Below, one piece after another: positions 30,688 through 48,368 of a stretch of DNA of 64,000 bases. Position 1 is the stretch's first letter. Every line of letters begins with the position of its first letter. Source of the DNA: an uncultured Gammaproteobacteria bacterium. GTDB taxonomy: Bacteria > Patescibacteriota > Microgenomatia > Levybacterales > UBA12049. A program made the position numbers and the translations under genes. The DNA is taken from positions 377,316 through 441,315 of the forward strand of contig OZ246394.1 in assembly GCA_965230895.1 (NCBI GenBank), written 5' to 3'. Below the pieces are notes generated by a model, which did not search any database, was not told the DNA's origin, and saw nothing but the letters and a program-made list of their open reading frames with translations.

Positions 30688-31308
30688 TTATTTCGTTTCA
30701 ATACTGACAAGTTCTGCTCGAACCATGTGTCTGTAAATATCATTTGGTCCATCACATGTGATCAAAGTCACTGATGGTTTTTCTGTGGGATAAAAAACAT
30801 CAACTTGTGTAGGTTTGATTGTTTTGATAGTGGTTACTTTATATGTGGCCTTGTAATTTTTTCCGTACAAGACGATTTCTTGTCCGACTTTAACATCTTT
30901 AATTGGGAGAAAAGCATTTGCCTGTGCGTGTCCAAAAAGACCGACATTACCATCTTTGGTATTTACCAAACTTGTACCTTCTGCATAGTTCGCTACTGCT
31001 GGTTGTACTTCCCACGTCCCGTTTTTAAGTGGTACTGAAACAACTTTCTTATCCAATTTAATACTCTCGATAACGATTCGTTCTGGTTTAAATGTTTTGT
31101 TCTTTACAGCGTCTTCAGTTGTTTCAGTACCACAATCAGTTGTGCAGGCATTGGTCTGTGTTTGCCACGACAAACCCTGCACCCATTCTGAAATGTTACT
31201 TCCATTGAAGAATTCATTCTTCAAAGAGCCTAACTGTATCAGTGAAGCTAGGACTGTGATTGTTAGTATCACAGCAAACGTATTCAGTTTCATGCGTAAA
31301 ACTTTCAT
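30688..31308 (-). CDS. Sortase (intact catalytic triad)
   Basis: N-terminal TM; His in …GNVGLFGHAQ…, Cys in …TLITCDG… (TLxTC), Arg in …YRHMVRAEL…. Confidence 0.8.
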   Translation of the reverse strand: MKVLRMKLNTFAVILTITVLASLIQLGSLKNEFFNGSNISEWVQGLSWQTQTNACTTDCGTETTEDAVKNKTFKPERIVIESIKLDKKVVSVPLKNGTWEVQPAVANYAEGTSLVNTKDGNVGLFGHAQANAFLPIKDVKVGQEIVLYGKNYKATYKVTTIKTIKPTQVDVFYPTEKPSVTLITCDGPNDIYRHMVRAELVSIETK

Positions 31309-31313
31309 AAACC

Positions 31314-31493
31314 TTATTTGTTGAACATGTAACGACTGATATGTCCTACCAACATAATAAGTAATAATGTATTTACAGCGACAAATCCAACCGCAATAAG
31401 TGGGTGCACTTTGTCAGCAAGCATAAGACCTGCGGCTGATGTAGCTGGTAATGTTGTTGCTGCTCCTACTAATCCTTTTCCATATTCGTTCAT
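31314..31493 (-). CDS. 59-aa mini-protein consisting of a short N-tail plus a complete LPXTG-like sorting signal (MNEYGKGLVGAATTLPATSAAG-TM-ISRYMFNK); not in the ORF track (<60 aa)
   Basis: Translated by hand from the minus strand; paralog of the 61-aa ORF at 42746-42931 with invariant YGKG, LPATSAAG and ISRY; sits between GT2 and sortase. Confidence 0.5.
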   Translation of the reverse strand: MNEYGKGLVGAATTLPATSAAGLMLADKVHPLIAVGFVAVNTLLLIMLVGHISRYMFNK

Positions 31494-31534
31494 AATCTAA
31501 TCACCTCCTTCTTGACTCGCCCTAAGGGCGGGTA

Positions 31535-32833
31535 TTACCTGGTTCCCCAGGCTGTTGAGTAACCAACTCTACGAAACGCAGAGTGGCCAAGCGAAATTAT
31601 ATAAGTAAGTGTCGAAAGGATAGATTTGGTCACGATATTGTAGAAATAAAATAAATATGAGCCAAACAATACCAGACTTAAGAAGTTGCTATAAATAAAT
31701 TCTGGTAATATAGAGAGTTTTATCAACCAATCGTTCGTATCACGATCAGCATACTCACGCATAACTATGATGTTATAAATTGTTGAAATAGCAAAACTAC
31801 CCCATGCCAGGAAAATAAGTACAGGAATTAAGCCTTGTGTTCGTGTATAGCTATCAGCAAACATAAACGACAGACCAACCAATACAAACAAACTTAAGAA
31901 AGAAGCATGGCCGACAAAATCTTGAAAGACTGAAGGAATATTTCTCCAATGCTGAGCAAGGACGTGCAAACCACCGCTTGTCCAACGTGCTCGTTGCTTC
32001 CAAAGTGCTTCTGCAGTTTCTGGTACCTCTGTCCATGCAATTGCTTTTTTAGCAATTTTTACTTCCCAACCTTGTATCTTCAATCGTGCTGTAATGTCAT
32101 AATCTTCAATCAAATGACCTGTACTAAATCCATTAATTGATTCAAGCACTTCCATTCGGAAAGCTGTAAGCATTCCTTGCATGACCAATGGCCCTTTCAA
32201 GAAGCCATTATCTGAGATTTTGGTGATATTAAAGCCATGATACTCGAGTCCTTGGAGACGAGTTACTATGTTTTTATTCTTATTTGTAATTCTGACTTGG
32301 GAGCAAACGGCTCCAATTTTATAACTTGAGAATAATGTGTTTACCATATTTGGTATCGTTTCTTTATTGATGACTACATCATCATCGAAGGTGAATACCG
32401 CATCAGGCTTAATAGCAAGTGATTGGAGATATTCAATTCCATAATTTAACGCACCAGCTTTTAAGGTGTTTTTCGGAGTTCGTAGAGAAACTATCTGAAG
32501 ATTGTTCGCTGCGAGCCAATTAATCTTACTGAGCACAGGTGCTGTATCAACGTTTAAAGGAGTACAATCATCGACTACTACTACAAGTACTTTTGAATGG
32601 TATTTTACGATTGATTCAACGAGTTGTACGGTCATTTCACTCGGACGGAAGGTCGGGATAATGACTGCTACGTTTTTTCTTGAGAAGACTGATCTTGTAT
32701 GTATACTTACTGGCTTTTTCGGCACAAAGAAATGGCCGACCTGTGCGACTGTTTCTATAAGGTTCTGGTTTAATTTAGTCTTACGATTCATACTATGAGT
32801 CGTATTATAACCTATAATAATGTGGATTGTCAA
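31535..32833 (-). CDS. Processive family-2 glycosyltransferase (IcaA/PgaC/NodC/cellulose-synthase-like), membrane-embedded
   Basis: …AVIIPTFRP…, DxD …FTFDDDVV…, QxxRW …WKQRARWTSGGL…; 4-5 C-terminal TM helices. Confidence 0.8.
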   Translation of the reverse strand: MTIHIIIGYNTTHSMNRKTKLNQNLIETVAQVGHFFVPKKPVSIHTRSVFSRKNVAVIIPTFRPSEMTVQLVESIVKYHSKVLVVVVDDCTPLNVDTAPVLSKINWLAANNLQIVSLRTPKNTLKAGALNYGIEYLQSLAIKPDAVFTFDDDVVINKETIPNMVNTLFSSYKIGAVCSQVRITNKNKNIVTRLQGLEYHGFNITKISDNGFLKGPLVMQGMLTAFRMEVLESINGFSTGHLIEDYDITARLKIQGWEVKIAKKAIAWTEVPETAEALWKQRARWTSGGLHVLAQHWRNIPSVFQDFVGHASFLSLFVLVGLSFMFADSYTRTQGLIPVLIFLAWGSFAISTIYNIIVMREYADRDTNDWLIKLSILPEFIYSNFLSLVLFGSYLFYFYNIVTKSILSTLTYIISLGHSAFRRVGYSTAWGTR

Positions 32834-32912
32834 GTACTATGGGGCTAAATTTTGGGTATAAAAAAAGCACGGGTATTTCTATACTCGTGCTACTTAAAAC
32901 GACTAATAAGCC

Positions 32913-35243
32913 TTATTTACTAAGACTTACTGAGTCGATGTACAAGTTAAATGTACTATTTGGTGTTGTGTAGTATTGCAATCTTACTTTATTAACATTT
33001 GCACTTGTTGGAACATATTGGAATGATTGTACTCCAGTTGTTGGACCCGTAACCATACCCTTCCATTGTCCTGAAAGCCAATTTCCTGCTGCATCGTATT
33101 CATCGATGTAGAATCCGAATTCACCTGTTCCTGTAAGAGCACTGATGAATTGTGACCATGTGTATGTTGTAGCAGGTGTTACTGTGATCATGTCACTGAA
33201 TGCATGCGCATAATTTGTGTTAGCTGCGATGTGCAAACTGTTCGCTCCAGCATTCCCCTTTGTTGTTGTATCAACTGAGAAGTCAGATGTATCTCGTGTC
33301 CAGTTAGCTGCGAATCCACTTGTTACTGTTTCGAATCCACCATTTACTACCAAGTTTGTTGCAGGTGTCCCTGTTGGCGCAACTGTTGGAGTTGCACTTG
33401 GTGTTCCTGTAGGAGTACTTGTTGGTGTAACACTAGGCGTACCTGATGGTGTTGCTGTTGGAGTTACACTTGCTGCTGTATTAGTTAATGCATAGTTATC
33501 AACTGTAGCTGTTCCTGTTGAATTAGCTGTAAGGTATGTTTGGACTCGGATTGAGTTAACCAACGTTGATGTTGCTTTGTAAGCTCGTGAGAATGTTGAT
33601 GTAACACCATTTGCTACTGCGCCCAACCATTGACCTGAAATCCAAGTACCTTGTGCATTGTATTCGTCGATGTAGAAGCCAAGTTCGCCTGATGTTAATC
33701 CACCTGTGTTTGCTACTGCACTAAAGTTATATGTAGCTGCTGTATCGATTCCAGAAACAGTTTGGAATAAGTGAGCTGCTGCTGTATTACCTTTTATAGA
33801 TGCTTCACCATTCGCTGCTGTAACGTTTACTGTGTTATCAGTTGTCCAAGGAGTCAAACCATCTGTGAATGATCCATTAACGATAACATTATTCGCTGCT
33901 GGAGTTGGAGTTACACTTGGTGTACCTGATGGTGTTGCTGTTGGTTCAGCACTCGGTGTAGGTGTAACACTTGGTGCACCATCAATGTTGTTCAAGTTAA
34001 CACTATCAATGTATGCTGTTCCTGTAGCTCCACCTGTAAGGTAGGTTTGGACTCGAACTGAGTTCACAAGGTTTGAAGTTGCATTGTAAAGCTTTGTGAA
34101 GAACCCAACTGTACCGTTTGTAACCATACCTAACCATTGTCCTGAGATCCAGTTACCGTTCGCATCATATTCATCGACATAGAATCCGAGTTCACCTGCA
34201 GTCAAACCTGTTGCATTATAGAATGCATCAAGGATGTAACTAGAGTTAAATGAAACATTTGTCAAACCTGAGAATAAGTGAGTAGCTGAAGCAGCACCTG
34301 TCATACTAACTGATTGTGTTGGTGAACCGTAGTTACCATGGTTAGCATTGTCAGCTTTTACTGCTGTTGCATTATCTGTGTTCCATCCATTTGCAAGTCC
34401 TGCTTCAAATCCTGAGTTTTGAAGTACATTTGCTCCAGGGATAGTGATACCTTGCTCTGTTGTAACAACTTGGATTTGTCCTGCGTTAACCTTTGTTTGA
34501 ACATAATTCGCCATTGTTGTAAGGTTTGCTGTTGTTACTGTGTATTCGTAATTAGGGTTCTTTGCAACTGCTGTGTCATGGAAGACAAGAATTAACCATT
34601 GCTTGTTTGCAATTGCTTGATCAACCCATGCTTGTACTTGTGCTGGTGTTGTCGCGTCATTAACATCTTGTACCATCAAGATAGCTCTATTATAAGGTGC
34701 ACTGTTTAATGCATCTCGATCTTGGAAAGCTCGATGTGATTTGTAGTATTTAAGGATTTCTGCAATTGTGTTGTTGTCATATGCTCCAAATGGTGAAGCA
34801 AAATTAGTAACGTTTAATCCATTTGCTTGGAATGCTGTATTTGAAGTTGTTAATTCAGCTTCATTTTGTGTAGCTGTAACTGTAGGCATTTCTACGTGAG
34901 TTCGTGTGTGACCACCAATTTCCCATCCATAAACATCTTGCAATTCTCGTACCTGTGCCCAAGTAATTCCTGGCTGATTATCATCCAAAGTAATTTGGCC
35001 ATCTGGAACTCCTGAAGTTAGGTAAAGAACACCATCGATTCCTCGTGCTTCAAGAATTGGAGCTGCAAGTGTTCGAGTAGATGCGAAACCATCATCAAAT
35101 GTGAAAGAAACTCGTGCCTTATTAAGTTCTGAGAGGTTAGTTATTTTAGCTGCTGATGCTACTGGAGCTTGTGACAAAACAAGAGCCGCCATCAATGCGA
35201 AAGCGGTCAAAGACTTTACTACTTTGTTTACTAAGTTGTTCAT
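32913..35243 (-). CDS. Large secreted surface protein: N-terminal NodB polysaccharide deacetylase + 3 carbohydrate-binding (CenC/CBM4_9-like) β-sandwich modules separated by Pro/Thr linkers
   Basis: Signal peptide; NodB motifs …VSFTFDDGFAS…, …GGHTRTHVEM…; 3 × …GELGFYVDEYDANGNWISGQWLGMVTNG… modules; linkers TPTPSAEPTATPSGTPSVTPTP. Confidence 0.8.
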   Translation of the reverse strand: MNNLVNKVVKSLTAFALMAALVLSQAPVASAAKITNLSELNKARVSFTFDDGFASTRTLAAPILEARGIDGVLYLTSGVPDGQITLDDNQPGITWAQVRELQDVYGWEIGGHTRTHVEMPTVTATQNEAELTTSNTAFQANGLNVTNFASPFGAYDNNTIAEILKYYKSHRAFQDRDALNSAPYNRAILMVQDVNDATTPAQVQAWVDQAIANKQWLILVFHDTAVAKNPNYEYTVTTANLTTMANYVQTKVNAGQIQVVTTEQGITIPGANVLQNSGFEAGLANGWNTDNATAVKADNANHGNYGSPTQSVSMTGAASATHLFSGLTNVSFNSSYILDAFYNATGLTAGELGFYVDEYDANGNWISGQWLGMVTNGTVGFFTKLYNATSNLVNSVRVQTYLTGGATGTAYIDSVNLNNIDGAPSVTPTPSAEPTATPSGTPSVTPTPAANNVIVNGSFTDGLTPWTTDNTVNVTAANGEASIKGNTAAAHLFQTVSGIDTAATYNFSAVANTGGLTSGELGFYIDEYNAQGTWISGQWLGAVANGVTSTFSRAYKATSTLVNSIRVQTYLTANSTGTATVDNYALTNTAASVTPTATPSGTPSVTPTSTPTGTPSATPTVAPTGTPATNLVVNGGFETVTSGFAANWTRDTSDFSVDTTTKGNAGANSLHIAANTNYAHAFSDMITVTPATTYTWSQFISALTGTGEFGFYIDEYDAAGNWLSGQWKGMVTGPTTGVQSFQYVPTSANVNKVRLQYYTTPNSTFNLYIDSVSLSK

Positions 35244-35386: not shown

Positions 35387-38023
35387 TTATTTGTATAGAG
35401 GGTTTTTTAAAAGATAGTCATTTATAATAATTTGTTCCTTTACTATTTTTTCAAAATCTACATCTGAATTTAACGCAAAATCAGCATTTTTGAAGTTTTG
35501 ATTAAAGAAAATTACTGCTTTAATCTTAGGATAGCTTGGTAATGTTACAAGAGCGTCTTTAAACCACTGTTCTTTATCTCCACCTTTACTTGTCGTGGAT
35601 GTTTCTGCAAGCATAATTGGTTTGTTCAATTTATCCAATTCTCCATAGGCTTTACCTATTGTTTGATCAAGAGTAAGCCATTTTGTTTTTGCATTTGAAC
35701 TTCCCCAATTAAATCCACTGAACCCTACCCAATCAACATACTCATCGCCTGGGTAATATGAAAGCATTGATGATGTACTTCCATGACTGTCTGTATTATT
35801 AGGAGCCCAGACCCAGACAACATTGGTTGCACCTTCTTCTTCAAAGATGTTATGAACATGTCTCCACATCGCGATATATGTTTTAGGGTCATTTTTGCTA
35901 CCCCACGGATACCAATCTCCATTCATCTCATGCGCAAATCGTAAGAAAACAGGCTGTTTAAAATCAGCTGCCTCTTTTGCAAATTTTCTTATGTACTCAT
36001 CATGGTCACCTTCAATGATTGATTGGGGAGAATAAATATTCTTCGCGGAAGGATCAGTACTAAATTTTTTAGATTCCCATGGTTCCCAAGTAATTATTGG
36101 AACAAGATTATTTTCAGAAAGTTTTTGTACATATACTTTGTCAAATGTATTGGTTGATGACCAATCCTGATAGTACATACTTAAAGATGTTTTTTCCTCA
36201 GGTATTGTAGTTAACTTAAAGTTGTTTGAATGAGCATTAAGAGAGGGGTGATAATATCCATAGTATACACCACTTGCCGGAACCAATAACTCTTTTTGAG
36301 GAGTTGGTGAAATTTGCTCGCTTAAGGTTTTCAAACTGGCAGATGTTTGAAATTCTGGGATAGTGGTGACATAATAACCAATTAATCCCATGACTACTAC
36401 TGCCGTTAAACCGCGTGTCAATAAAGAATAACCAAAGGTGTTACTCATGATTCGTGAAGTACTATTTTTGATTGCGAATACTATGTTTTCGAAAACTGAA
36501 AAGTCGTAATTTTCTCTAACGATAAGGTAAAATCCTAAACTCAATATAATGACATCAAAAGCAGCCCAAAAGAAATTAAGAAGAGCACCTACATTACCAA
36601 CGGCATGTTGATACCCGTACAATAACCCACATGCTAATAAAATAGCGACAATCCCTTGAAGTTTATAAACAGCGAAAGGATTTTCTTTCTCATATTTCTT
36701 AATAGTTACAATAAAGGAAAGTTCTTTTTTAAACACACTCGAAAGGAATGCGCTTACAAATATTGGAAACGAAGCAATATCTAGTACAAGACTTTTGATA
36801 GGATTTCGGAAAAGTGTAGCATAAAGGATACTGTTATACAGTAACAACGGACCATAAACAAATGCGAGATACTGCCATGTATTTGCATTTACAAGGGCAA
36901 GACCAAAGAATAAATATGGTAATGGAGCAAGCATTAGGATCAAATCACGAACACCGATCAAATAATATGATGCAGATAACAAATAATGAAACTTTTGTCT
37001 TATTGTTAAAGGACCAAATACTATTTGTTTTAGGTAATGAAATGAAACATCAAAACTTCCTTTTGCCCAACGTTGTTGTTGACTAAAGTATTGTTTCAAT
37101 GAAGAAGGAGCAATACCTTCAGCGAGGACTTCAGGAATAAATACACCTTTACTGCCTCTTAAATGAAGCTCCAACGAAGTTGCATAGTCTTCAGTAATAA
37201 ACTTAGTATCCATTCCACCAATGCTATCTAATGCGCTTCTTCGAATCGCAAAATTTGTACCGCATAAGAAAAGTGCATTATCATGTCCTTTAGAGTCACA
37301 TATGTGGTCAAAGAAGAAGATTTGATGCGCTGCAGAAGCTTTTGCAACCCATGTTTTTTCATTTTTGTATCTTTGTGGACTTTGCGCAAAATCAATTGAA
37401 GGATTATTAAATGGTTTAGCTATCTCAGTTAGGAAATGCTCTTTTACAGCAAAATCGGCATCAAGTACAATATCTAATGTATTAAAAGCATCTTGTGCTG
37501 GAATTTCTCGCAGACCATTATTGATATTACCTGCCTTAAATCCTCCACCTACAGAACGTGCAATATGGATTACATCCAGCTCTTCTGCTAAGGCTTGAAT
37601 GTCTCTCCAATTGTCTTTATTTGCAGCTTTACCGTCATTTAATACGATAACTTTAGGTTGTACATTTGGGTTAGTAGTACTAATGTAATAATCTCTAGCT
37701 TTCTTTGCTGCCAAAATAGTTTCTCTTATTACTTCTTCTGGCTCTCCGCAGACGCAAATAAACATATTCATTTCTACATTCTTATTCTCATTTACCGCAG
37801 TGTAACGTCTGTATTTTCGAGGCCAAAGAGAATAAAACATTCCATAGAGATGAAATATTGTATGGAGTTCAGCAATGAAAAGAATAATACTAAACACCAT
37901 CAAGGCTGGGGAGAAATTAATAAAAGTAATTCTATAGAAGAAATAGACAGTAAGAAGCATCGCTCCGCTCAGAAGAAGGGAACGCAATCCTATACTTTTT
38001 AAGAACGTCTTAAAATCATTCAT
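35387..38023 (-). CDS. Cellulose-synthase-like processive GT2 (BcsA-like) fused to a C-terminal clan GH-A (GH26-like) glycoside hydrolase domain
   Basis: GT2: …VLDADF…, …FITEDYATS… (TED), …QQQRWAKGS… (QxxRW), multiple TM; C-terminal: …LRFAHEMNGDWYPWG…, …YYPGDEYVDWVGFSGFN…, …IMLAETS…. Confidence 0.8.
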   Translation of the reverse strand: MNDFKTFLKSIGLRSLLLSGAMLLTVYFFYRITFINFSPALMVFSIILFIAELHTIFHLYGMFYSLWPRKYRRYTAVNENKNVEMNMFICVCGEPEEVIRETILAAKKARDYYISTTNPNVQPKVIVLNDGKAANKDNWRDIQALAEELDVIHIARSVGGGFKAGNINNGLREIPAQDAFNTLDIVLDADFAVKEHFLTEIAKPFNNPSIDFAQSPQRYKNEKTWVAKASAAHQIFFFDHICDSKGHDNALFLCGTNFAIRRSALDSIGGMDTKFITEDYATSLELHLRGSKGVFIPEVLAEGIAPSSLKQYFSQQQRWAKGSFDVSFHYLKQIVFGPLTIRQKFHYLLSASYYLIGVRDLILMLAPLPYLFFGLALVNANTWQYLAFVYGPLLLYNSILYATLFRNPIKSLVLDIASFPIFVSAFLSSVFKKELSFIVTIKKYEKENPFAVYKLQGIVAILLACGLLYGYQHAVGNVGALLNFFWAAFDVIILSLGFYLIVRENYDFSVFENIVFAIKNSTSRIMSNTFGYSLLTRGLTAVVVMGLIGYYVTTIPEFQTSASLKTLSEQISPTPQKELLVPASGVYYGYYHPSLNAHSNNFKLTTIPEEKTSLSMYYQDWSSTNTFDKVYVQKLSENNLVPIITWEPWESKKFSTDPSAKNIYSPQSIIEGDHDEYIRKFAKEAADFKQPVFLRFAHEMNGDWYPWGSKNDPKTYIAMWRHVHNIFEEEGATNVVWVWAPNNTDSHGSTSSMLSYYPGDEYVDWVGFSGFNWGSSNAKTKWLTLDQTIGKAYGELDKLNKPIMLAETSTTSKGGDKEQWFKDALVTLPSYPKIKAVIFFNQNFKNADFALNSDVDFEKIVKEQIIINDYLLKNPLYK

Positions 38024-38068: not shown

Positions 38069-39151
38069 CTATAAAGAGGTTTTAAATGCGTTGAGGCTTG
38101 ATGAGGATGAATCTATTCTCCAATCGGCTTCTTTTATTAAATTAAACCAAATAACCTCATTTACCCTTGGAAAAGCGGTATGAATCGAATAGAACATATC
38201 ATTTACCCAAGCTTCTTTATTGCCCCCTTGTTCGGAAGAAGCAATCTCGGCAATTATTATGGGCTTATCATATTGAGCAGCAATATATTGATAGGTTGGC
38301 TGAAAGAGTGCACTAAAAGACCTCCAGCCCCCATAACTACGTGTTGTTCCGAAGTTAAAGCCATCAATACCTATAACATCAACTACATCGCTTCCTGGAT
38401 AATATCCATTTATTTCACTAGGATTTTCTGTTATATTCACGCACCACATCCATTGCACATTCGTAACTCCTTCTTGCTGGAAAACTGTATGTATATGACG
38501 GTAAGCTGCAATATATTCTTCAGGCCTCTTTCCCCACGGATACCAATCACCATTCATTTCATGCCCAAAGCGCAATGTGACAGGACTGCCGTATTGCTTT
38601 ATGGACTGGGCAAATTGTCTTATATATGTATCATGCGTTCCTTGGGAAATTTCTTTAAGGTAATCAACAGCTTGAGATGAGCCTTGTTCAGGGTTCCAGG
38701 GCTCCCAGGCCAGTTGTATTTTTTTCCTGCTTTGTTTACTGTATGTAAGTTGAGTAAGGTTAAAACCTTTATTATTTTGATTCCCAAATTGTTTAAAAAT
38801 AGAAAGTGTTGTTATATTTGTATCTAATTGTTTTTCTAAAGAAGTAACTGTATTTTGGTTATTTGCGTAGTCATCAACTACAACACCAAATAGTAGTGTA
38901 TTATTTTTCGGAACTACTGCTTGTATTGTGGGAGTCGGAGTCACAACTGTAATAGGTTTTGGTTTTGCAGTAGGAGTTGGTGTAATCTCTTGAAATCGAG
39001 TTGCTGTAGTTTTTTGACTGGCAGCAAAGGCTGGTTGTGTTGTTTTAGATTGTGATTTAAAAAAGAATGCAGTGAGCAAGGTACTACTTAAGACGATGAG
39101 AAGGAGCGTTATCATTGTTATATTTTTCTTAGAGAACTTAGTAAATTTCAT
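38069..39151 (-). CDS. Membrane-anchored clan GH-A (GH26-like) glycoside hydrolase, paralog of the C-terminal domain of the upstream fusion
   Basis: N-terminal TM; …LRFGHEMNGDWYPWG…, …YYPGSDVVDVIGIDGFN…, …IIIAEIAS…. Confidence 0.7.
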   Translation of the reverse strand: MKFTKFSKKNITMITLLLIVLSSTLLTAFFFKSQSKTTQPAFAASQKTTATRFQEITPTPTAKPKPITVVTPTPTIQAVVPKNNTLLFGVVVDDYANNQNTVTSLEKQLDTNITTLSIFKQFGNQNNKGFNLTQLTYSKQSRKKIQLAWEPWNPEQGSSQAVDYLKEISQGTHDTYIRQFAQSIKQYGSPVTLRFGHEMNGDWYPWGKRPEEYIAAYRHIHTVFQQEGVTNVQWMWCVNITENPSEINGYYPGSDVVDVIGIDGFNFGTTRSYGGWRSFSALFQPTYQYIAAQYDKPIIIAEIASSEQGGNKEAWVNDMFYSIHTAFPRVNEVIWFNLIKEADWRIDSSSSSLNAFKTSL

Positions 39152-39260: not shown

Positions 39261-42035
39261 TTAGTTAGCTGATAGACTAACAGAGTCGATATAGATAGGG
39301 AATGTACTGTTTGGTGTTTTGTAATACTGAAGTCGTACACTTTTAACTGTTGCACTCGTAGGAGTATACGAGAAAGTTTTTGTTCCTGTTGATGCTCCAT
39401 TAACCATACCTTTCCATTGTCCTGAGACCCAAGTACCTGCTGCATCATATTCATCGATATAGAATCCGAATTCACCTGTTCCTGCAAGCGCCATTATGTA
39501 TTGTGTCCATGTATATGTTTTTGTTGAATCAACTGAAACACTAGAACTGAATGCGTGAGCGTAAGCTGTATTTGCTGGAATGAACAGACTGTTCGCTCCA
39601 TTGTTTCCCTTTGATGTAGTATCAATTGTTGTAACATCTCCTGTGTCATGAGTCCAATTTGATGCAAATCCACCTGCAACTGTTTCAAAACTACCGTTTG
39701 GAATTAAGTTAGTTACTACAGGTGTTGTAGTTGGTGTAGGCGTAACAGTACTTGTTGGTGTCACAGTTGGTGTTGGTGAAACTGTACCTGTAGGTGCTGC
39801 TGTGTTTGTCATACTATAGTTGTCTACAAATGCTGTCCCGTTAGAGTTTGCAGCCATGTATGTTTGAATGCCAATTCTTGATACAAGTGCACTAGTAGCT
39901 TTATATGTTTTTTCAATGCTTGTTACTGCACCATTTACAACTGATCCCAACCATTGACCAGAAATCCATGTTCCATTTATGTCATATTCATCGATATAGA
40001 AGCCAAGCTCCCCTGATGTAACTGCTGTTGCATCAGCTGTAGCTTTAAGCAAGTATGTAGCTGTTGTATCAATAGCGTTTAGGTTGTAGAACAAGTGAGA
40101 TGCTGTTGTTGTTCCTGTAAATTTAACTGCATTTTGGCCACCATTTGCATCAGCGACAACGTTTGCAGGTTTATCAGTAGTCCAACCATTTGAGATCCCT
40201 TGATCAAATGAACCATTTGTAATTACGTTCGTTGCTGCAGGTGTCGGAGTTGCAACCGCTGGACCAGTTAAACTATAGTTGTCAACATATGCTGTTCCGT
40301 TAGAGTTTGCAGCCATGTATGTTTGAATACCAATTCTCGCAACGAGATTACTTGTAGCTTTATAAGCTTTTTGGAAAGTTGACGTTACACCGTTAGATAC
40401 ATTACCAAGCCACTGTCCTGATATCCAAGTACCTGCTGCATTGTATTCATCAATATAAAAACCAAGTTCTCCACTAGTAAGACCATTTGCGTTTACCGTT
40501 GAACTAAGAAGGTATGTAGCTGTTGTATCAATAGCGTTTAGGTTGTAGAACAAGTGAGATGCTGTTGTTGTTCCTGTAAATTTAACTGCATTTTGGCCAC
40601 CATTTGCATCAGCGACAACGTTTGCAGGTTTATCAGTAGTCCAACCATTTGAGATCCCTTGATCAAATGAACCATTTGTAATTACGTTCGTTGCTGCAGG
40701 TGTTGGCGTAGGTGTACCACTTACACTAGCTGTAGGAGTTGGAGTTACACTTGTTGTTGGCGCAGGTGTACCATCCAAGTTGTATACTTGAACACTATCA
40801 ACATATGCTGTACCTGTTGCACCCGCTGTAAGGTATGTCTGTACTCGGATAGTATTTACCAATTCAGAAGTTGCGTTATAAAGCTTTGTGAAGAATCCAA
40901 TTGTACCATTTGTAACCATACCCAACCATTGTCCTGAGGTCCAGTTACCATTTGCATCATATTCATCGACGTAGAATCCGAGTTCACCTGATGTTAAGCC
41001 AAGCGAATTAACGAAAGCGTCCAATACATAACTTGAATTGTATGATACTTGTACATTTCCTGAGAATAAATGTCCTTCAGTTGCAGTTCCAGTCAAGTTA
41101 ATAGATTGTACTGGTGAACCGTAATTACCATTATTTCCATTGTCAGCAGCTACACCAGCAGCATTATCTGTTGTCCAACCGTCAGCGAGACCATTTTCAA
41201 ATCCTGAGTTTTGCAAGATGTTCACTCCTGGGATTGTAATTCCCTGTTCAGTTGTAACGACTTGGATTTGTCCTGCATTAACCTTTGTTTGAACATAACT
41301 CGCCATTGTTGTAAGGTTTGCTGTTGTTACTGTATATTCATAATTTGGATTTTTCTTTGTTGCTGTGTCATGGAACACAAGGATCAACCATCGCTTTTCA
41401 GTGATTGCTTGATCAACCCATGCTTGGACTTGTGCTGATGTTGTCGCGTCATTAACGTCTTGTACCATTAATATATCTTTATGAAGTGGGTTACTATTTA
41501 ATGCATCTCGATCTGCAAAACCTCTGTGAGACTTATACAATTTCAAAATTTCAGTTAATGTCATGGTATCGTATGCACCAAACGGTGAAGCAAAGTTAGT
41601 AACGTTTAATCCATTTGCTTTAAATGCTGCGTTTGAATTTGCAAGTTCTGCTACGTTTTGTTCTCGTGTAATTGTAGGCATTTCAGCATGGTCTACTGTG
41701 TGACCACCGATTTCCCAACCATAAACGTTTTGGAGTTCTCGTACTTGGTCCCAAGTAATTCCTGGTTGGTTATCATCTAGCGTAGCTGTACCATCTGGAA
41801 CACCAGATGTGAGGTAGAGAACACCATCAATACCATGTGCTTCAAGAATTGGAGCTGCGAGTGTTCGAGTTGATGCAAATCCATCGTCAAATGTGAAGGA
41901 AACTCGTGCACGATCAAGATCTGAGATACTATTTAATCGAGCTGCTTGAGCAATTGGTGCTTGCGCCAAGAAGAGGACCGCACTCAAAACGATTGCGGTT
42001 AATGCTCGTACTATTTTATTAGTTAATGTATTCAT
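39261..42035 (-). CDS. Large secreted surface protein (paralog of 32913-35243): NodB deacetylase + 4 CBM-like modules; contains a 202-bp perfect intragenic direct repeat
   Basis: N-terminal ~200 aa nearly identical to the paralog (…RVSFTFDDGFASTRTLAAPILEA…); modules with …GELGFYIDEY…SGQWLG…; identical DNA at 40053-40254 and 40512-40713. Confidence 0.8.
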   Translation of the reverse strand: MNTLTNKIVRALTAIVLSAVLFLAQAPIAQAARLNSISDLDRARVSFTFDDGFASTRTLAAPILEAHGIDGVLYLTSGVPDGTATLDDNQPGITWDQVRELQNVYGWEIGGHTVDHAEMPTITREQNVAELANSNAAFKANGLNVTNFASPFGAYDTMTLTEILKLYKSHRGFADRDALNSNPLHKDILMVQDVNDATTSAQVQAWVDQAITEKRWLILVFHDTATKKNPNYEYTVTTANLTTMASYVQTKVNAGQIQVVTTEQGITIPGVNILQNSGFENGLADGWTTDNAAGVAADNGNNGNYGSPVQSINLTGTATEGHLFSGNVQVSYNSSYVLDAFVNSLGLTSGELGFYVDEYDANGNWTSGQWLGMVTNGTIGFFTKLYNATSELVNTIRVQTYLTAGATGTAYVDSVQVYNLDGTPAPTTSVTPTPTASVSGTPTPTPAATNVITNGSFDQGISNGWTTDKPANVVADANGGQNAVKFTGTTTASHLFYNLNAIDTTATYLLSSTVNANGLTSGELGFYIDEYNAAGTWISGQWLGNVSNGVTSTFQKAYKATSNLVARIGIQTYMAANSNGTAYVDNYSLTGPAVATPTPAATNVITNGSFDQGISNGWTTDKPANVVADANGGQNAVKFTGTTTASHLFYNLNAIDTTATYLLKATADATAVTSGELGFYIDEYDINGTWISGQWLGSVVNGAVTSIEKTYKATSALVSRIGIQTYMAANSNGTAFVDNYSMTNTAAPTGTVSPTPTVTPTSTVTPTPTTTPVVTNLIPNGSFETVAGGFASNWTHDTGDVTTIDTTSKGNNGANSLFIPANTAYAHAFSSSVSVDSTKTYTWTQYIMALAGTGEFGFYIDEYDAAGTWVSGQWKGMVNGASTGTKTFSYTPTSATVKSVRLQYYKTPNSTFPIYIDSVSLSAN

Positions 42036-42141
42036 ATATATTTATTAACAATTAAATGTTAAATTTATAAGACTCATAGTAACATATATAGAACCTTATG
42101 TCAATATATTAAATAACTTATAGTTATATATTGACTTGAAC

Positions 42142-42732
42142 TTATTTTTCGTTAGAAAGTTCTATCTTTACTAATGCAGCTTTTACAATATATTGCTTGT
42201 TCGAGAACGTTTCATCTGATGTAACAAGAGTCAAAATAGGTGTTTTTGTTGGTGCAAAAACATTTGTATCTGTTGTTTTTGCCAATCTTGAAGAAGTTAC
42301 TTTATATGTTGCTTTTTGACCGTTACCATAGACTACAATTTCAGTATTATTATTAAGTTGTTGGATTCGAGTAAATCCATCAAGTCTATCGTTTGCAAAA
42401 AGTCCAACGTTTCCTTCTTTATCATTGACCAAGCTTGTGCCTTCAGCAAAGTTGGCAACATGTGGAAGAAGCTCCCAAGTACCATCTCTTAATGGTACTG
42501 AAAATACTGGAAGGTCAATTTCTACAGAAGAGATAACGATTCGTTCAGGAGTGAAAGCTGATAATGTCTTAACAGGAGTAACTGTTGGTGTCTTTGATGC
42601 AAATGGCGTTGCTGTCAATTCTTGAGAATTAGCTACAGTAGATGACACACCAGTACCAAGCGCACCAAGTTGCGCGATACTAGCAAAAGCCGCCAAAACA
42701 AAAATAGTTGTATAAACACTTACTTTCTTCAT
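42142..42732 (-). CDS. Sortase-fold paralog with all three catalytic residues substituted (degenerate / pseudo-sortase)
   Basis: Aligns along its length with the sortase at 30688-31308, but GLFGHAQ→GLFANDR (His→Asn), TLITCDG→TLVTSDE (Cys→Ser), VRAEL→VKAAL (Arg→Lys). Confidence 0.7.
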   Translation of the reverse strand: MKKVSVYTTIFVLAAFASIAQLGALGTGVSSTVANSQELTATPFASKTPTVTPVKTLSAFTPERIVISSVEIDLPVFSVPLRDGTWELLPHVANFAEGTSLVNDKEGNVGLFANDRLDGFTRIQQLNNNTEIVVYGNGQKATYKVTSSRLAKTTDTNVFAPTKTPILTLVTSDETFSNKQYIVKAALVKIELSNEK

Positions 42733-42745
42733 ATCGTTAATTGAC

Positions 42746-42931
42746 TTATTTAGCTCTATTAACTAAATATCGACTGATTTGACCTGCTAAGATAACAAGC
42801 CATACGACATTAAGTACTATAAAACCTGCAAGTACAATCGGATTACTTAAGTCAGCAAAGAATGCTCCTGCTGCTGAAGTAGCCGGTAATACCGCTGCGC
42901 CTAATACTTGTCCTTTTCCGTAATCTGTCAT
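42746..42931 (-). CDS. 61-aa mini-protein, paralog of 31314-31493 (MTDYGKGQVLGAAVLPATSAAG-TM-ISRYLVNRAK)
   Basis: Same architecture and invariant LPATSAAG; same position between GT2 and sortase homolog. Confidence 0.5.
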   Translation of the reverse strand: MTDYGKGQVLGAAVLPATSAAGAFFADLSNPIVLAGFIVLNVVWLVILAGQISRYLVNRAK

Positions 42932-42946
42932 AGCTTTCTCCTTTCG

Positions 42947-44209
42947 TTAGTTTTTTGTACCCCACTTTGTTGAGAATCCTGCCTTATTGAAGGCTGCGAG
43001 TCCCCAGTTATATGGAGCATTGAATAATGATATTCTTGTTGCAATTGGCTTAAAGACTTTGTTGTATACGATAAATAAGTATGATCCGAGCAAGATAAGA
43101 CTTAACAAGTTACTGTAAATAAGTTCTGGAAGAACGGTTAACTTCATTAACCAATCTCTCTTATCACTATCTTCATATAAAGATAATGAAACGACATTAA
43201 AGATGAATGCTACAAGGAAGTTGAATAATGAAAGAGCGAATAATATAAGTACTGTTTCTGGATTACTTGTTTCAGTTCGTACAAAAAAGAATGACAACAC
43301 AATCAATCCAAAAAGACTGATGAACAACATATGTCCGATAAGATCTTGGTAAATAACATCAAATTTCTTCCAGAATTCACCCAACACATGGAGTCCACCA
43401 CTTACCCATCGAACACGCTGTTTCCAGAGTGCTTCGATTGATTCAGGAACTGTTGTCCATGCAATTGCTTTTTGAGCAATCTTTACATTCCAACCTTCAC
43501 TCTTCAATCGTGCTGTAATATCATAGTCTTCAATCAAGTGGCCTTTTGTAAAACCATTAATTTCTTTAACTGCTGCTGTTCGAAAAGCTGTTAACATGCC
43601 ATGCATTACAAGTGGTCCTTTTAAGAAACCATTGTCAGCAATCTTTGTGATATTAAAGTTATGGTATTCAAGTGCTTGCAATCGAGTTAAGAAGTTTTTG
43701 TTCTTATTAATAACTCGTACTTCAGAACAGACGGCACCGACTGTATCGTCAGAATACAATGTCGCAACCATTTGTGGAACTGTGTTCTTAGTAATGATCA
43801 CATCATCATCGAAAGTGAAGATAACATCTGGAACATGCTTGAGACTCAAGACATATTCAATACCATGATTTAAGGCCGCTGCTTTTAACTCATTTTTAGG
43901 AGTTCGCAAATAAGCCATATTATTGTGTTCGTTTGCAAGAGCTTTGATTTTGTTAAGTGTCTTAAGATTTTTTTCAGTTTCTGGAGTACAATCATCAATG
44001 ACAACAAGAATTGCTTCAGGATGCCAATCAAGAATAGACTTAATTAGGTTATAGGTCATATCAGTTGGAGTATGAGTTGGTACCAGAATTGCAGGAAGTT
44101 TACTCTGAATAAGCTTCTCACTCATCAAGATTATTTCCTTTTTAGGAGCGAAAAAGTTCACGGATTCTTCCGCGATTCGTTTGAATGTATTTGTATTTTT
44201 TCTCTTCAT
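42947..44209 (-). CDS. Processive family-2 glycosyltransferase, paralog of 31535-32833
   Basis: …AILVVIDDCTPE…, …FTFDDDVI…, QxxRW …WKQRVRWVSGGL…; C-terminal TM helices. Confidence 0.8.
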   Translation of the reverse strand: MKRKNTNTFKRIAEESVNFFAPKKEIILMSEKLIQSKLPAILVPTHTPTDMTYNLIKSILDWHPEAILVVIDDCTPETEKNLKTLNKIKALANEHNNMAYLRTPKNELKAAALNHGIEYVLSLKHVPDVIFTFDDDVIITKNTVPQMVATLYSDDTVGAVCSEVRVINKNKNFLTRLQALEYHNFNITKIADNGFLKGPLVMHGMLTAFRTAAVKEINGFTKGHLIEDYDITARLKSEGWNVKIAQKAIAWTTVPESIEALWKQRVRWVSGGLHVLGEFWKKFDVIYQDLIGHMLFISLFGLIVLSFFFVRTETSNPETVLILFALSLFNFLVAFIFNVVSLSLYEDSDKRDWLMKLTVLPELIYSNLLSLILLGSYLFIVYNKVFKPIATRISLFNAPYNWGLAAFNKAGFSTKWGTKN

Positions 44210-44266
44210 GAAGTGTGATTATATAGGACGTCTTATAAGATGTCAATAGGGTAATATTATGGGGTA

Positions 44267-46305: not shown

Positions 46306-46467
46306 AAGGTGAGCAGTATAACATAGGCTTATAATAATTGCAATAGGTATATTTAAAACTCTTACAATAGATTCTTCATGGATGACTTTGATATGAAAAG
46401 TGACAGATCACAATCTTAGTCCCATAATAGAATTGACAAATAATTATTATGGGATATAATTCGTTTT

Positions 46468-47175: not shown

Positions 47176-47180
47176 AAAGA

Positions 47181-48218: not shown

Positions 48219-48368
48219 AAGAAGAGGATTATAGCAATATTTTTACTATGAGTCAATATGTATGCATAATATTGCATTAATATAATATGTACTATTTATA
48301 TATGTATAAATATGAATTATATATCCTTTTATATTGACTTATGGGACTATATATAGTAAAATCCTCGA

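What the first reader, a model, noticed from the sequence alone, without database searches (positions are those of the whole stretch)
35387..38023. Cellulose-synthase-like GT2 fused in one polypeptide to a GH26-like glycanase, with a free-standing glycanase paralog next door
The N-terminal ~560 aa carry BcsA-type motifs (DxD, TED, QQQRW) and multiple TM helices. The C-terminal ~330 aa carry clan GH-A motifs (RFAHEMNGDWYPWG, IMLAETS) shared with the adjacent secreted protein at 38069-39151. Synthase/hydrolase pairs (BcsA/BcsZ) are normally separate genes. A covalent synthase-glycanase fusion suggests obligatory trimming or transglycosylation of the nascent chain.
Basis: partly seen in the sequence, partly recalled or inferred. 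Interest (0 to 1): 0.65.

Follow-up and report, generated by a model that had tools for sequence, protein, structure and literature searches.

The report
Glycan synthase fused to GH26 glycanase
One gene of an uncultivated ultra-small (Patescibacteria) bacterium joins a cellulose-synthase-like sugar-polymer pump to an outward-facing sugar-cutting enzyme; this design is real and recurs in several bacterial phyla, but I found no study of it.

Summary
Window 35387..38023 (-) is one uninterrupted 878-aa ORF.

- **Synthase half.** Residues 1-505 are a BcsA-type processive GT2 synthase. It has the DxD, TED, QQQRW and FxVTxK motifs and a BcsA-like fold, but no PilZ domain.
- **Junction.** An extra conserved transmembrane helix (534-556) and a 26-residue linker follow.
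- **Glycanase half.** Residues 583-878 are a GH26 (beta/alpha)8 domain. Its closest solved relative is the Clostridium thermocellum lichenase CtLic26A (E 9e-43), and both catalytic Glu (E699, E807) are kept.
- **Neighbour.** The neighbour at 38069..39151 is a membrane-anchored GH26 paralog, 38% identical.

The fusion is not an artefact. About 59 full-length homologues exist in Patescibacteria. More distant single-ORF fusions occur in Actinomycetota and Bacteroidota, and other phyla carry the same pair as adjacent genes.

Predicted topology puts GH26 outside the cell. The best reading is a self-contained synthase-translocase whose tethered retaining endoglycanase processes its own nascent beta-glycan. 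That is a covalent analogue of BcsA/BcsZ and of tunicate CesA (GT2-GH6).

Two things remain unproven: the polymer, and whether the domain trims or transglycosylates. The polymer is most likely a beta-glucan, but close relatives carry a CE4 deacetylase in the same position. I found no literature on this architecture. It is a new variant of a known kind, of moderate interest.

The parts
35387..38023 (-). Whole fusion gene, 878 aa plus stop: GT2 synthase, membrane channel, extra TM helix, linker, GH26
   Evidence: Single ORF. Pfam GT2 + GH26. AF2 mean pLDDT 88. Foldseek matches BcsA and CtLic26A on separate halves.
37826..38023 (-). Residues 1-66: two N-terminal TM helices, equivalent to BcsA TM3/TM4
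   Evidence: Hydropathy. AF2 helices 2-32 and 42-66. Aligned to BcsA from residue 46/58. M1 is conserved in at least 90% of homologues.
37004..37786 (-). Residues 80-340: cytoplasmic GT2 catalytic domain with NDG (D130), KAGN, DxD (D188/D190), QSPQ, FLCG, TED (277-279) and QQQRW (315-319)
   Evidence: Pfam. Motif-by-motif alignment to BcsA. D188, D190, E278, D279, Q315 and W319 are invariant in 42/42 fusions.
36509..37003 (-). Residues 341-505: translocation-channel region with four TM helices (BcsA TM5-TM8 equivalents), an interface helix and the gating loop FIVTIK (437-442; 36698..36715)
   Evidence: AF2 helices. BcsA alignment up to residue 494. K442 is invariant and T440 is kept in 40/42.
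36425..36508 (-). Residues 506-533: short amphipathic helices, predicted cytoplasmic, where BcsA would continue into its PilZ domain
   Evidence: AF2. Net positive charge +1.4 averaged over 42 homologues. No PilZ hit.
36356..36424 (-). Residues 534-556: extra (seventh) TM helix that carries the chain to the outside
   Evidence: Hydrophobic segment present at the same alignment position in nearly all of 42 fusions, including those 26-28% identical. The charge pattern flips after it. It is also present in the CE4-bearing relative P0063.
36278..36355 (-). Residues 557-582: flexible linker (EFQTSASLKTLSEQISPTPQKELLVP)
   Evidence: pLDDT below 50 for residues 558-572. Homology with the CE4-bearing relative ends here.
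35390..36277 (-). Residues 583-878: GH26 (beta/alpha)8 domain, CtLic26A-like. Acid/base E699 (35927..35929) and nucleophile E807 (35603..35605)
   Evidence: PDB phmmer E 9e-43 to 2bv9, against 2e-10 or weaker for GH26 mannanases and xylanases. Foldseek TM 0.80-0.88, rmsd 2.0-2.8. The two Glu align to E109/E222 and are kept in 40/42 and 41/42 fusions.
38069..39151 (-). Free-standing, N-terminally anchored GH26 paralog, 45 nt upstream of the fusion
   Evidence: Pfam. 38% identity, with both catalytic motifs. The same upstream neighbour is found in L002, L005, L084, L089 and L090, and two genes away in L083. It forms a separate clade from the fused domains.
50615..53254 (-). PMT/GT-C-like membrane domain fused to a BcsZ-like GH8. 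Probable member of the same ancestral envelope-glycan cluster
   Evidence: Pfam and NCBIfam. Sits in one compact same-strand cluster with the GT2-GH26 gene in the closest relative, L089. At least 120 full-length homologues.
45544..46305 (-). GlmU-N-terminal-type sugar-1-phosphate nucleotidyltransferase, a conserved member of the cluster
   Evidence: NCBIfam E 6e-63 to the GlmU N-terminal half. The 67%-identical orthologue lies two genes upstream of the free GH26 in L089.

Best explanation
The gene encodes a self-contained, synthase-dependent exopolysaccharide machine in a monoderm Patescibacteria (Levybacteria-like) cell. The proposed mechanism has five steps.

1. The cytoplasmic GT2 domain polymerises a nucleotide-sugar processively. 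UDP-glucose is the most likely donor.
2. The BcsA-like six-helix channel threads the growing beta-glycan across the membrane.
3. Where BcsA continues into its cytoplasmic PilZ regulator, this protein has one more TM helix. That helix places a catalytically competent, retaining GH26 endo-beta-glycanase on the outer face, on a linker of about 26 residues next to the channel exit.
4. The tethered glycanase acts in cis on the enzyme's own product. It would cut or release chains and clear stalled ones, which is the role BcsZ (GH8) and CcsZ (GH5) play as separate proteins.
5. The free, membrane-anchored GH26 paralog encoded just upstream acts in trans on the released or wall-associated polymer.

What is shown:
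- the domain identities
- intact catalytic motifs in both halves
- conservation of the fusion and of the extra helix
- genetic linkage of GT2 and GH26 across phyla

What is inferred:
- the outside location of GH26
- that its substrate is the synthase's own product
- that the product is a beta-glucan, either cellulose-like or mixed-linkage 1,3;1,4
For: - **Domain identity and intact active sites.** Pfam, PDB and NCBIfam hits. All BcsA motifs including the gating loop align and are invariant or nearly so in 42 fusions. E699 and E807 align with CtLic26A E109 and E222 and are kept in 40/42 and 41/42. The AF2 model has pLDDT 88, with BcsA and CtLic26A as top structural matches.
- **Real and selected.** The identical ORF appears in an independent assembly. 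About 59 full-length fusions at 46-71% identity were found. Single-ORF fusions occur in 20 loci from Patescibacteria, Actinomycetota and Bacteroidota.
- **Functional coupling.** The same two activities are adjacent separate genes in Coriobacteriia, Acidobacteriota, Micromonospora and Pseudomonadales loci. That gives the fused-in-one-lineage, separate-in-another ('Rosetta stone') pattern.
- **Topology.** The alignment to BcsA ends in the TM8 equivalent. An additional hydrophobic helix is conserved at 534-556. Net loop charge alternates and drops from +1.4 to -0.4 across that helix. Free homologues mostly carry N-terminal signal or anchor segments.
- **Non-redundant paralogs.** The fused and the free GH26 form separate clades that are each conserved among relatives.
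- **Known roles of cognate hydrolases.** These are reviewed in PMC8892547 and PMC7710045.
Against: - No experiment exists, and neither the polymer nor the GH26 substrate is known.
- Close relatives of the synthase half (54-65% identity) have no GH26. Some carry a CE4 deacetylase in the same C-terminal slot (P0063, P0065) and others have a CE4 gene directly upstream (L086, L088). Hydrolysis is therefore not intrinsic to this synthase clade, and the product may be an acetylated or hexosamine-containing glycan rather than plain glucan.
- One close homologue (L082) lacks the free GH26 neighbour.
- The cluster also contains a GlmU-like nucleotidyltransferase, which hints at UDP-GlcNAc.
- GH26 is retaining, so transglycosylation is mechanistically possible.
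- AF2 confidence is low for residues 520-575, and the relative placement of the two halves is uncertain (pTM 0.63).
- Topology is predicted only.
Confidence: 0.6

Rival explanations
1. The tethered GH26 works mainly as a transglycosylase. Its glycosyl-enzyme intermediate is resolved by a sugar acceptor rather than by water. This would graft or cross-link the nascent chain onto the wall, onto another glycan made by the same cluster, or onto a second chain. The analogy is plant XTH or fungal Crh enzymes.
For: GH26 uses a retaining double-displacement mechanism (PMC10470212), and both Glu are intact. The cell is monoderm with sortases, and many other glycan enzymes lie in the same conserved cluster. 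A second, free GH26 could then supply the purely hydrolytic activity, which would fit the two conserved paralog lineages.
Against: As far as I know, no GH26 has been shown to be a dedicated transglycosylase (from memory). The closest characterised relative is a hydrolytic lichenase. Nothing in the sequence distinguishes the two outcomes.
Confidence: 0.15
2. The product is not a plain beta-glucan. It could be an acetylated or hexosamine-containing beta-glycan, or a mannan or xylan. In that case the GH26 domain has a specificity not yet described for the family. The mechanism of cis-processing would stay the same, but the chemistry would differ.
For: The same synthase chassis, including the seventh helix, carries a CE4 deacetylase instead of GH26 in P0063 and P0065. 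CE4 genes sit directly upstream of the closest unfused relatives. A GlmU-N-type nucleotidyltransferase is a conserved cluster member. Most characterised GH26 enzymes are mannanases or xylanases (PMC10470212, PMC13390465).
Against: The GT half scores far better against cellulose synthase models than against PNAG or NodC models: TIGR03030 at 183 bits against PgaC at 56 bits. It carries TED and FxVTxK as in BcsA. The GH26 half is much closer to the lichenase than to mannanases or xylanases, E 9e-43 against 2e-10 or weaker. In the closest relative the cluster has no CE4, so the CE4 genes in this window are insertions.
Confidence: 0.3
3. The GH26 domain degrades foreign polysaccharide, either for food or to breach a host envelope. 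On this view the synthase half serves only as its membrane anchor, or acts independently.
For: Patescibacteria encode many secreted glycanases. This window also has a GH10 and a GH8. The CtLic26A-like family is large (1426 representatives at E<=1e-30) and mostly not fused.
Against: All GT2 catalytic motifs are invariant across the fusions, so the synthase half is under selection as an enzyme. GT2-GH26 linkage recurs as fusion or adjacency in at least five phyla. A single TM helix would be enough as an anchor, as in the free paralog.
Confidence: 0.08
4. The fusion is an assembly, frameshift or gene-calling artefact that joins two separate genes.
For: None found. The only annotation discrepancy is a shorter start codon choice in the public record.
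Against: The ORF is uninterrupted. The same ORF appears in an independent run assembly. About 59 full-length homologues from many samples and assemblers were found. The junction helix is conserved, and AF2 models a continuous chain.
Confidence: 0.01

Closest known systems
Bacterial cellulose synthase BcsA with its cognate endoglucanase BcsZ (GH8)
   Same: A processive GT2 with D,D,D,QxxRW, the FxVTxK gating loop and an integral translocation channel. An extracytoplasmic glycanase is genetically coupled to the synthase, and it modulates production (PMC8892547).
   Different: Here the two activities are one polypeptide. The hydrolase is GH26 (clan GH-A) rather than GH8. There is no PilZ domain, and no BcsB was seen among the ORFs scanned. 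NCBIfam scores are far below the BcsA cut-offs.
Clostridial CcsA / CcsZ (membrane-tethered GH5 endoglucanase; PMC7710045, PMC8892547)
   Same: A monoderm synthase-dependent system. Its cognate (beta/alpha)8 hydrolase is held at the membrane by a single TM helix. That is the arrangement produced here by the seventh helix and linker, and by the anchored free paralog.
   Different: CcsZ is a separate protein of family GH5 that acts on beta-1,4-glucan. Here the hydrolase is GH26 and is covalently joined to the synthase.
Tunicate cellulose synthase CesA (GT2 + GH6 in one protein) with the free GH6-1 paralog (PMC7464555)
   Same: A covalent synthase-glycanase fusion with the GH domain C-terminal, plus a free-standing paralog of the GH domain in the same genome.
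   Different: Tunicate CesA is eukaryotic. The GH family is unrelated (GH6), and the fused GH6 has lost its catalytic Asp. Here both catalytic Glu are conserved. This is an analogue, not a homologue, of the fusion event.
CtLic26A, the GH26 lichenase module of Clostridium thermocellum CelH (PDB 2bv9, 2cip, 2vi0)
   Same: 38.5% identity over 231 aligned positions. The fold matches (TM 0.80-0.88), and both catalytic Glu and the HE(x)NGDWYPW motif align.
   Different: CtLic26A is a secreted cellulosomal enzyme that degrades plant glucan. It is not membrane-bound and is not linked to a synthase.
Bifunctional tailoring enzymes PgaB (CE4 + GH153) and PelA (hydrolase + deacetylase) of PNAG and Pel systems
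   Same: Hydrolase and deacetylase activities serve one synthase-dependent polymer. In this GT2 clade the C-terminal slot holds either GH26 or CE4.
   Different: In those systems the tailoring domains are on a separate periplasmic protein, not on the synthase. The GH families also differ. This comparison is from established knowledge and was not tested here.
Bacterial mixed-linkage glucan synthases RiGT2 (Romboutsia ilealis; PMC10374906) and BgsA (Sinorhizobium meliloti)
   Same: BcsA-like GT2 enzymes that need no BcsB. Their product would be the natural substrate of a lichenase-type GH26.
   Different: RiGT2 keeps a PilZ domain and has no fused or reported cognate hydrolase. Sequence relatedness to RiGT2 could not be tested here.

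Membership tests
Processive membrane-integrated GT2 beta-glycan synthases (BcsA/CesA type) | D, D, D, Q(Q/R)xRW catalytic signature (NDG, DxD, TED, QxxRW) | tested here: met
   D130, D188/D190, E278-D279 and Q315..W319 align to the BcsA motifs. They are invariant in 41-42 of 42 homologues.
Processive membrane-integrated GT2 beta-glycan synthases (BcsA/CesA type) | FxVTxK gating loop and a BcsA-like TM channel fold | tested here: met
   FIVTIK 437-442 aligns to the BcsA sequence FAVTAK. K442 is kept in 42/42 and T440 in 40/42. Foldseek to 4p00/4hg6 gives E 1e-27 and target-normalised TM 0.57-0.58.
BcsA proper (UDP-forming cellulose synthase catalytic subunit, TIGR03030 / PRK11498) | Score at or above the curated NCBIfam cut-off | tested here: not met
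   183 bits against 699 for TIGR03030, and 107 against 992 for PRK11498.
BcsA proper (UDP-forming cellulose synthase catalytic subunit, TIGR03030 / PRK11498) | [quoted passage not shown] | tested here: not met
   No PilZ hit. The BcsA alignment stops at the TM8 equivalent, and the C-terminus is TM helix + linker + GH26.
BcsA proper (UDP-forming cellulose synthase catalytic subunit, TIGR03030 / PRK11498) | Partner BcsB co-polymerase encoded alongside | tested here: inconclusive
   No BcsB family hit among the 30 window ORFs scanned with Pfam or among the called neighbours of homologues. Not every ORF was scanned.
BcsA proper (UDP-forming cellulose synthase catalytic subunit, TIGR03030 / PRK11498) | Product is beta-1,4-glucan made from UDP-glucose | not testable with these tools
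   Needs in vitro synthesis and linkage analysis.
Glycoside hydrolase family 26 | Significant match to the family model and a (beta/alpha)8 fold | tested here: met
   PF02156 at 63 bits against a cut-off of 20.2. Foldseek to CtLic26A gives TM 0.80-0.88 and rmsd 2.0-2.8.
Glycoside hydrolase family 26 | Two catalytic glutamates (acid/base and nucleophile) | tested here: met
   E699 and E807 align with E109 and E222 of CtLic26A. The assignment of those two CtLic26A residues as the catalytic pair is from memory of Taylor et al. 2005, and that paper was not held.
GH26 lichenase subgroup (EC 3.2.1.73, CtLic26A-like) | Closest characterised relative is the lichenase rather than a mannanase or xylanase | tested here: met
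   E 9e-43 to CtLic26A, against 2e-10 or weaker for GH26 mannanases, beta-1,3-xylanase and the mixed-linkage xylanase.
GH26 lichenase subgroup (EC 3.2.1.73, CtLic26A-like) | Hydrolysis of beta-1,3;1,4-glucan | not testable with these tools
   38.5% identity does not fix specificity. An enzyme assay is needed.
Cognate hydrolase of a synthase-dependent exopolysaccharide system (BcsZ/CcsZ role) | Conserved genetic coupling to the synthase | tested here: met
   Fused in 20 loci and adjacent in several others across at least five phyla.
Cognate hydrolase of a synthase-dependent exopolysaccharide system (BcsZ/CcsZ role) | Extracytoplasmic location | tested here: met
   In silico only. Evidence is the BcsA-based helix count plus one extra conserved helix and the positive-inside pattern over 42 sequences.
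Cognate hydrolase of a synthase-dependent exopolysaccharide system (BcsZ/CcsZ role) | Cleaves the polymer made by its synthase | not testable with these tools
   Needs biochemistry.
Tunicate-type CesA (GT2-GH6 fusion) | C-terminal GH6 domain | tested here: not met
   The C-terminal domain is GH26. The resemblance is architectural only.

The most novel reading that the evidence does not exclude
BcsA-like synthases of this clade have a modular extracytoplasmic 'tailoring slot' after an added seventh helix, which holds GH26 in some members and CE4 in others. In the GH26 form the tethered retaining enzyme would not be a mere clean-up cellulase. It would act as the chain-length-setting or wall-grafting (transglycosylating) step of a one-polypeptide make-export-process machine. 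In Patescibacteria this machine would belong to a conserved envelope-glycan cluster. That cluster holds a second membrane glycosyltransferase-glycanase fusion (GT-C + BcsZ-like GH8), and together the two would build a so far undescribed surface glycan of these epibiotic cells.
Probability: 0.3. Interest if true: 0.75.

Novelty: new variant of a known kind. Interest (0 to 1): 0.55.

Why it matters
**An open question about synthase-dependent polysaccharides.** Why synthase-dependent polysaccharide systems almost always carry an enzyme that destroys their own product is still debated. That includes BcsZ, and PMC8892547 calls the roles 'enigmatic'. A natural covalent fusion with intact catalytic residues fixes the stoichiometry at 1:1 and places the hydrolase at the channel exit. 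Single point mutations (E699Q, E807Q) in one protein could then test whether the cognate hydrolase sets chain length, releases chains or grafts them.

**Practical tractability.** The protein apparently needs no BcsB, PilZ or outer-membrane partners, so it should be easy to reconstitute. Culturable hosts carry distant versions: Salinimicrobium, Mucilaginibacter, Fibrella and Cognataquiflexum.

**Relevance to Patescibacteria.** The surface chemistry that mediates attachment of these cells to hosts is essentially unknown. This gene marks a conserved envelope-glycan cluster.

**Limit on the claim.** The sequences are already in public databases under generic names. The general logic of a synthase plus a cognate hydrolase is well known.

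Tried and rejected
- **Artefact.** Rejected. The ORF is intact, is found again in an independent assembly, and has dozens of full-length homologues.
- **Degenerate GH domain, as in tunicate CesA.** Rejected. Both Glu are conserved in 40-41 of 42 fusions, and only two distant homologues (P0088, P0090) have substitutions.
- **Free GH26 as a recent tandem duplicate of the fused domain.** Rejected. The two form separate clades, each conserved in relatives (NJ tree without bootstrap, so approximate).
- **Flanking CE4 deacetylases (32913..35243, 39261..42035) as the fusion's dedicated partners.** Rejected for this lineage. The closest relative, L089, has the same cluster without them, so CE4 + PgaC-like GT2 + sortase are inserted, duplicated modules. 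CE4 linkage does hold for other members of the GT2 clade.
- **Literature.** Six searches found no description of a GT2-GH26 fusion. A 2026 paper on Actinoplanes only notes an uncharacterised GH26 in a Wzx/Wzy cluster.
- **Dead ends.**
  - The afdb50 fold library was unavailable.
  - Taylor et al. 2005 was not held, so CtLic26A subsite residues could not be compared.
  - There were no tRNA or Rfam hits in the window.
  - Promoter-like sites were not more frequent than in shuffles.
  - Model coordinates and PAE are not exposed, so the position of GH26 relative to the channel exit could not be measured.


Full report
**1. Is it there?**

Yes. The ORF listing gives a single minus-strand ORF at 35387..38023, 878 aa with an ATG start. 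The translation has no internal stop.

Pfam finds GT2 families over residues 88-378 (best E 1e-22) and GH26 (PF02156, E 4e-17, 63 bits against a cut-off of 20.2) in the C-terminal part.

A phmmer search of PDB chains splits the protein cleanly:
- Residues 6-494 match Rhodobacter BcsA (4hg6/4p00, E 1e-35).
- Residues 611-856 match the GH26 lichenase module of C. thermocellum CelH, CtLic26A (2bv9 and others, E 9e-43).
- GH26 mannanases, a beta-1,3-xylanase and a mixed-linkage xylanase reach only E 2e-10 or weaker.

The neighbour at 38069..39151 (-) is a 360-aa GH26. It has an N-terminal hydrophobic anchor, a Pro/Thr-rich linker and the same two catalytic motifs. It is 38% identical to the fused domain (E 1e-52).

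**2. Anatomy**

The residue-by-residue alignment to BcsA pairs these motifs:

| BcsA | This protein |
|---|---|
| HAKAGN | GFKAGN |
| DAD | DAD (188-190) |
| QTPH | QSPQ |
| FFCGS | FLCGT |
| TED | TED (277-279) |
| QQRGRW | QQQRW (315-319) |
| gating loop FAVTAK | FIVTIK (437-442) |

The alignment ends at residue 494 of the query, inside the helix that corresponds to BcsA TM8.

An AlphaFold2 model built on 42 homologues has mean pLDDT 88. Foldseek against the PDB returns BcsA (E 1e-27, target-normalised TM 0.57-0.58) for the N-terminal half. It returns CtLic26A (TM 0.80-0.88, rmsd 2.0-2.8 A) for the C-terminal half. No solved chain covers both halves.

After the TM8 equivalent (helix 480-505) come:
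- two short amphipathic helices (509-530)
- one further hydrophobic helix (534-556)
- a low-confidence linker (557-582)
- the (beta/alpha)8 barrel (583-878)

There is no PilZ domain. NCBIfam scores against the two cellulose-synthase models are far below their cut-offs, 183 against 699 and 107 against 992. The protein is therefore BcsA-like but not a BcsA equivalog.

**3. Topology (inferred)**

In BcsA the chain after TM8 is cytoplasmic and continues into PilZ. This is established knowledge from Morgan et al. 2013, cited from memory. One extra TM helix should therefore put the C-terminal domain outside. Three observations support this:
- A hydrophobic segment sits at the same alignment position (reference 530-560) in nearly all 42 fusions, including those only 26-28% identical.
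- Mean net charge of the loops alternates as the positive-inside rule predicts. It falls from +1.4 before the seventh helix to -0.4 after it.
- The free paralog and most free homologues carry an N-terminal signal or anchor.

**4. Active sites**

In the 42-sequence alignment D188, D190, E278, D279, Q315, W319 and K442 are invariant. E699 (aligned to CtLic26A E109) is kept in 40/42 and E807 (aligned to E222) in 41/42. Both halves are therefore under selection as enzymes. This differs from tunicate CesA, whose fused GH6 has lost its catalytic Asp (PMC7464555).

**5. Not an artefact, and not unique**

The identical gene is on a 1.61-Mb NCBI contig and also in an independent Logan assembly of SRR14271372, again next to the free GH26.

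The large protein search returned about 59 full-length GT2+GH26 proteins at 46-71% identity. Where named, they come from Microgenomates-group Patescibacteria (Blackburnbacteria, Woesebacteria and others). It also returned more distant fusions at 27-29% identity.

A scan of GTDB species representatives found single-ORF fusions in 20 loci:
- Patescibacteria
- Actinomycetota (Solirubrobacteraceae and relatives)
- Bacteroidota: Salinimicrobium, Sediminicola, Mucilaginibacter, Fibrella, Cognataquiflexum. Most of these are about 1250 aa with a further C-terminal region; the Fibrella protein is 834 aa.

In Coriobacteriia, Acidobacteriota, Micromonospora and a Pseudomonadales MAG, the GT2 and one to three GH26 genes are adjacent but separate. 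Fused in some lineages and split but adjacent in others is the classic signature of a functional pair.

A full scan of 1.84 billion representatives with the GH26 domain alone found 1426 at E<=1e-30. Among the best 150, only a few have the length and domain position expected of the fusion. The fused form is therefore a minority of a large CtLic26A-like family.

**6. The paralog**

A free GH26 directly upstream of the fusion recurs in L002, L005, L084, L089 and L090, and two genes away in L083. It is absent in L082.

In a neighbour-joining tree, the fused domains of the Patescibacteria clade form one group and their free neighbours another. The tree has no bootstrap, so it is approximate. The pair is old and both copies are retained, which argues for different jobs.

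**7. Wider context**

TypA/BipA from the window is 76-90% identical to proteins named Levybacteria/Levyibacteriota and Patescibacteria. The host is therefore a CPR bacterium of the Microgenomates group.

The closest relative's locus (L089, fusion 67% identical) has a compact same-strand cluster:
- double-GT2
- PMT(GT-C)-GH8
- GlmU-N-type nucleotidyltransferase
- an unknown protein
- free GH26
- the GT2-GH26 fusion
- a triple-GT gene, divergent upstream

The window has the same genes in the same order. It is interrupted by four genes at 46468..50443 and by a PgaC-like GT2 / sortase / CE4 block at 39261..44209. A second copy of that module lies at 30688..35243, and the two CE4 proteins are 63% identical. 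The CE4 genes beside the fusion are therefore lineage-specific insertions.

The conserved core includes a second membrane glycosyltransferase-glycanase fusion at 50615..53254. It joins a PMT-like domain to a BcsZ-like GH8 (E 3e-40 to PRK11097) and has at least 120 full-length homologues in Patescibacteria.

**8. What is the polymer?**

This is unresolved.

For a beta-glucan:
- The GT half resembles cellulose synthases much more than PNAG or NodC models and has TED and FxVTxK.
- The GH half is closest to a beta-1,3;1,4-glucanase.
- BcsB-independent bacterial synthases of mixed-linkage glucan exist (PMC10374906).

Against a simple glucan:
- Proteins 54-56% identical through the seventh helix carry a CE4 deacetylase where this one carries GH26 (P0063, P0065).
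- The closest unfused relatives have a CE4 gene immediately upstream (L086, L088).
- A GlmU-like nucleotidyltransferase is in the conserved cluster.

The C-terminal position thus behaves as a swappable slot for an extracytoplasmic tailoring domain. My estimate is about 0.5-0.6 for a glucan and about 0.3 for an acetylated, hexosamine-containing or other glycan.

**9. Mechanism**

Best-supported explanation (confidence 0.6): polymerise in the cytoplasm, translocate through the integral channel, and process in cis by the tethered retaining endoglycanase. The free anchored paralog would act in trans. This is a covalent version of BcsA/BcsZ or CcsA/CcsZ (PMC8892547, PMC7710045).

Rivals:
- transglycosylation or wall grafting (0.15)
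- different polymer chemistry (0.3, not exclusive of the mechanism)
- a foreign-substrate hydrolase merely anchored by the synthase (0.08)
- artefact (0.01)

**10. Novelty**

Six literature searches found no description of a GT2-GH26 fusion. The nearest items are:
- the tunicate GT2-GH6 CesA
- a 2026 note that GH26 genes in exopolysaccharide clusters are uncharacterised

The proteins are already in public databases under generic automatic names.

I rate this a new variant of a known kind, with moderate interest (0.55). Specialists would find it neat rather than astonishing. It does offer a clean single-protein system to test what cognate hydrolases do for synthase-dependent polysaccharides.

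Noticed in passing
window 50615..53254 (-): An 879-aa protein joins an N-terminal PMT/GT-C-like polytopic membrane domain (PF02366, residues 68-223) to a C-terminal BcsZ-like GH8 (PF01270 E 1e-48; PRK11097 E 3e-40). This is a second membrane glycosyltransferase-glycanase fusion in the same window. It has at least 120 full-length homologues in Patescibacteria and is syntenic with the GT2-GH26 gene in L089.
   Followed up: partly
window 53259..55484 (-) and 55879..60015 (+): Two multi-domain glycosyltransferase fusions: GT2+GT2 (741 aa) and GT2+GT2+GT4 (1378 aa). They are divergently arranged. Orthologues at 70% and 75% identity occupy the same positions in L089.
   Followed up: partly
window 32913..35243 (-) and 39261..42035 (-): Two secreted CE4 deacetylase paralogs, 63% identical. 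Each has three or four internal repeats of a CBM-like module (weak NTTRR-F1 hits) separated by Pro/Thr linkers. Each sits with a PgaC/IcaA-like GT2 (31535..32833, 42947..44209) and a sortase (30688..31308, 42142..42732). This looks like a duplicated module inserted into the conserved cluster.
   Followed up: partly
P0063, P0065; loci L085, L086, L088: The same GT2 chassis, including the seventh TM helix (54-56% identity), carries a C-terminal CE4 deacetylase instead of GH26. The closest unfused relatives have a CE4 gene directly upstream, overlapping the start codon in L088. L088 also has two GH16 genes and a GDSL esterase nearby.
   Followed up: partly
window 45544..46305 (-): A 253-aa nucleotidyltransferase matches only the N-terminal (uridylyltransferase) half of GlmU (E 6e-63) and lacks the acetyltransferase half. 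It is conserved in the cluster (67% identical in L089).
   Followed up: partly
window 37901..38023 (-), first 41 codons of the fusion gene: The public annotation of the identical protein (P0001, 837 aa) starts at Met42 and so omits the first TM helix. Homologues conserve M1 and helix 1, which favours the 878-aa form.
   Followed up: yes
L006, L007, L009-L014 and L018 (Bacteroidota) and L008 (Cognataquiflexum rubidum): Most of the Bacteroidota-type GT2-GH26 fusions are about 1250-1300 aa, with roughly 400 extra C-terminal residues. In L006 this region gives a weak GH2 TIM-barrel hit (E 1.5e-4). P0103 also lists GH72 and GH2_C families, so there may be a third, clan GH-A-like domain.
   Followed up: partly
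L048, L061, L062, L066 (Solirubrobacterales): Tandem arrays of three to five CtLic26A-like GH26 paralogs lie side by side, most with signal peptides. Many representatives also have two or three GH26 domains in one protein.
   Followed up: no
window 28806..30566 (-): A 586-aa GH10 xylanase-family protein (E 7e-69, residues 261-580) has about 260 N-terminal residues with no Pfam match. It lies at the downstream end of the same-strand gene run.
   Followed up: no
window 44246..44218 (-), 32833..32804 (-), 46433..46460 (+): Three perfect 12/12 sigma-70 consensus sites (TTGACA-N16-18-TATAAT) lie just upstream of GT2_420, at the listed TTG start of GT2_432 (so the real start is probably downstream), and upstream of 46468..47175. 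Overall, promoter-like sites are no more frequent than in shuffles.
   Followed up: no
window 16620..18095 (+), 23277..24536 (+), 24624..26873 (+), 44267..45532 (-): Four sizeable ORFs (491, 419, 749 and 421 aa) have no Pfam match. The 421-aa ORF also has no NCBIfam match. It occupies the cluster position where L089 has an unrelated 371-aa protein.
   Followed up: no
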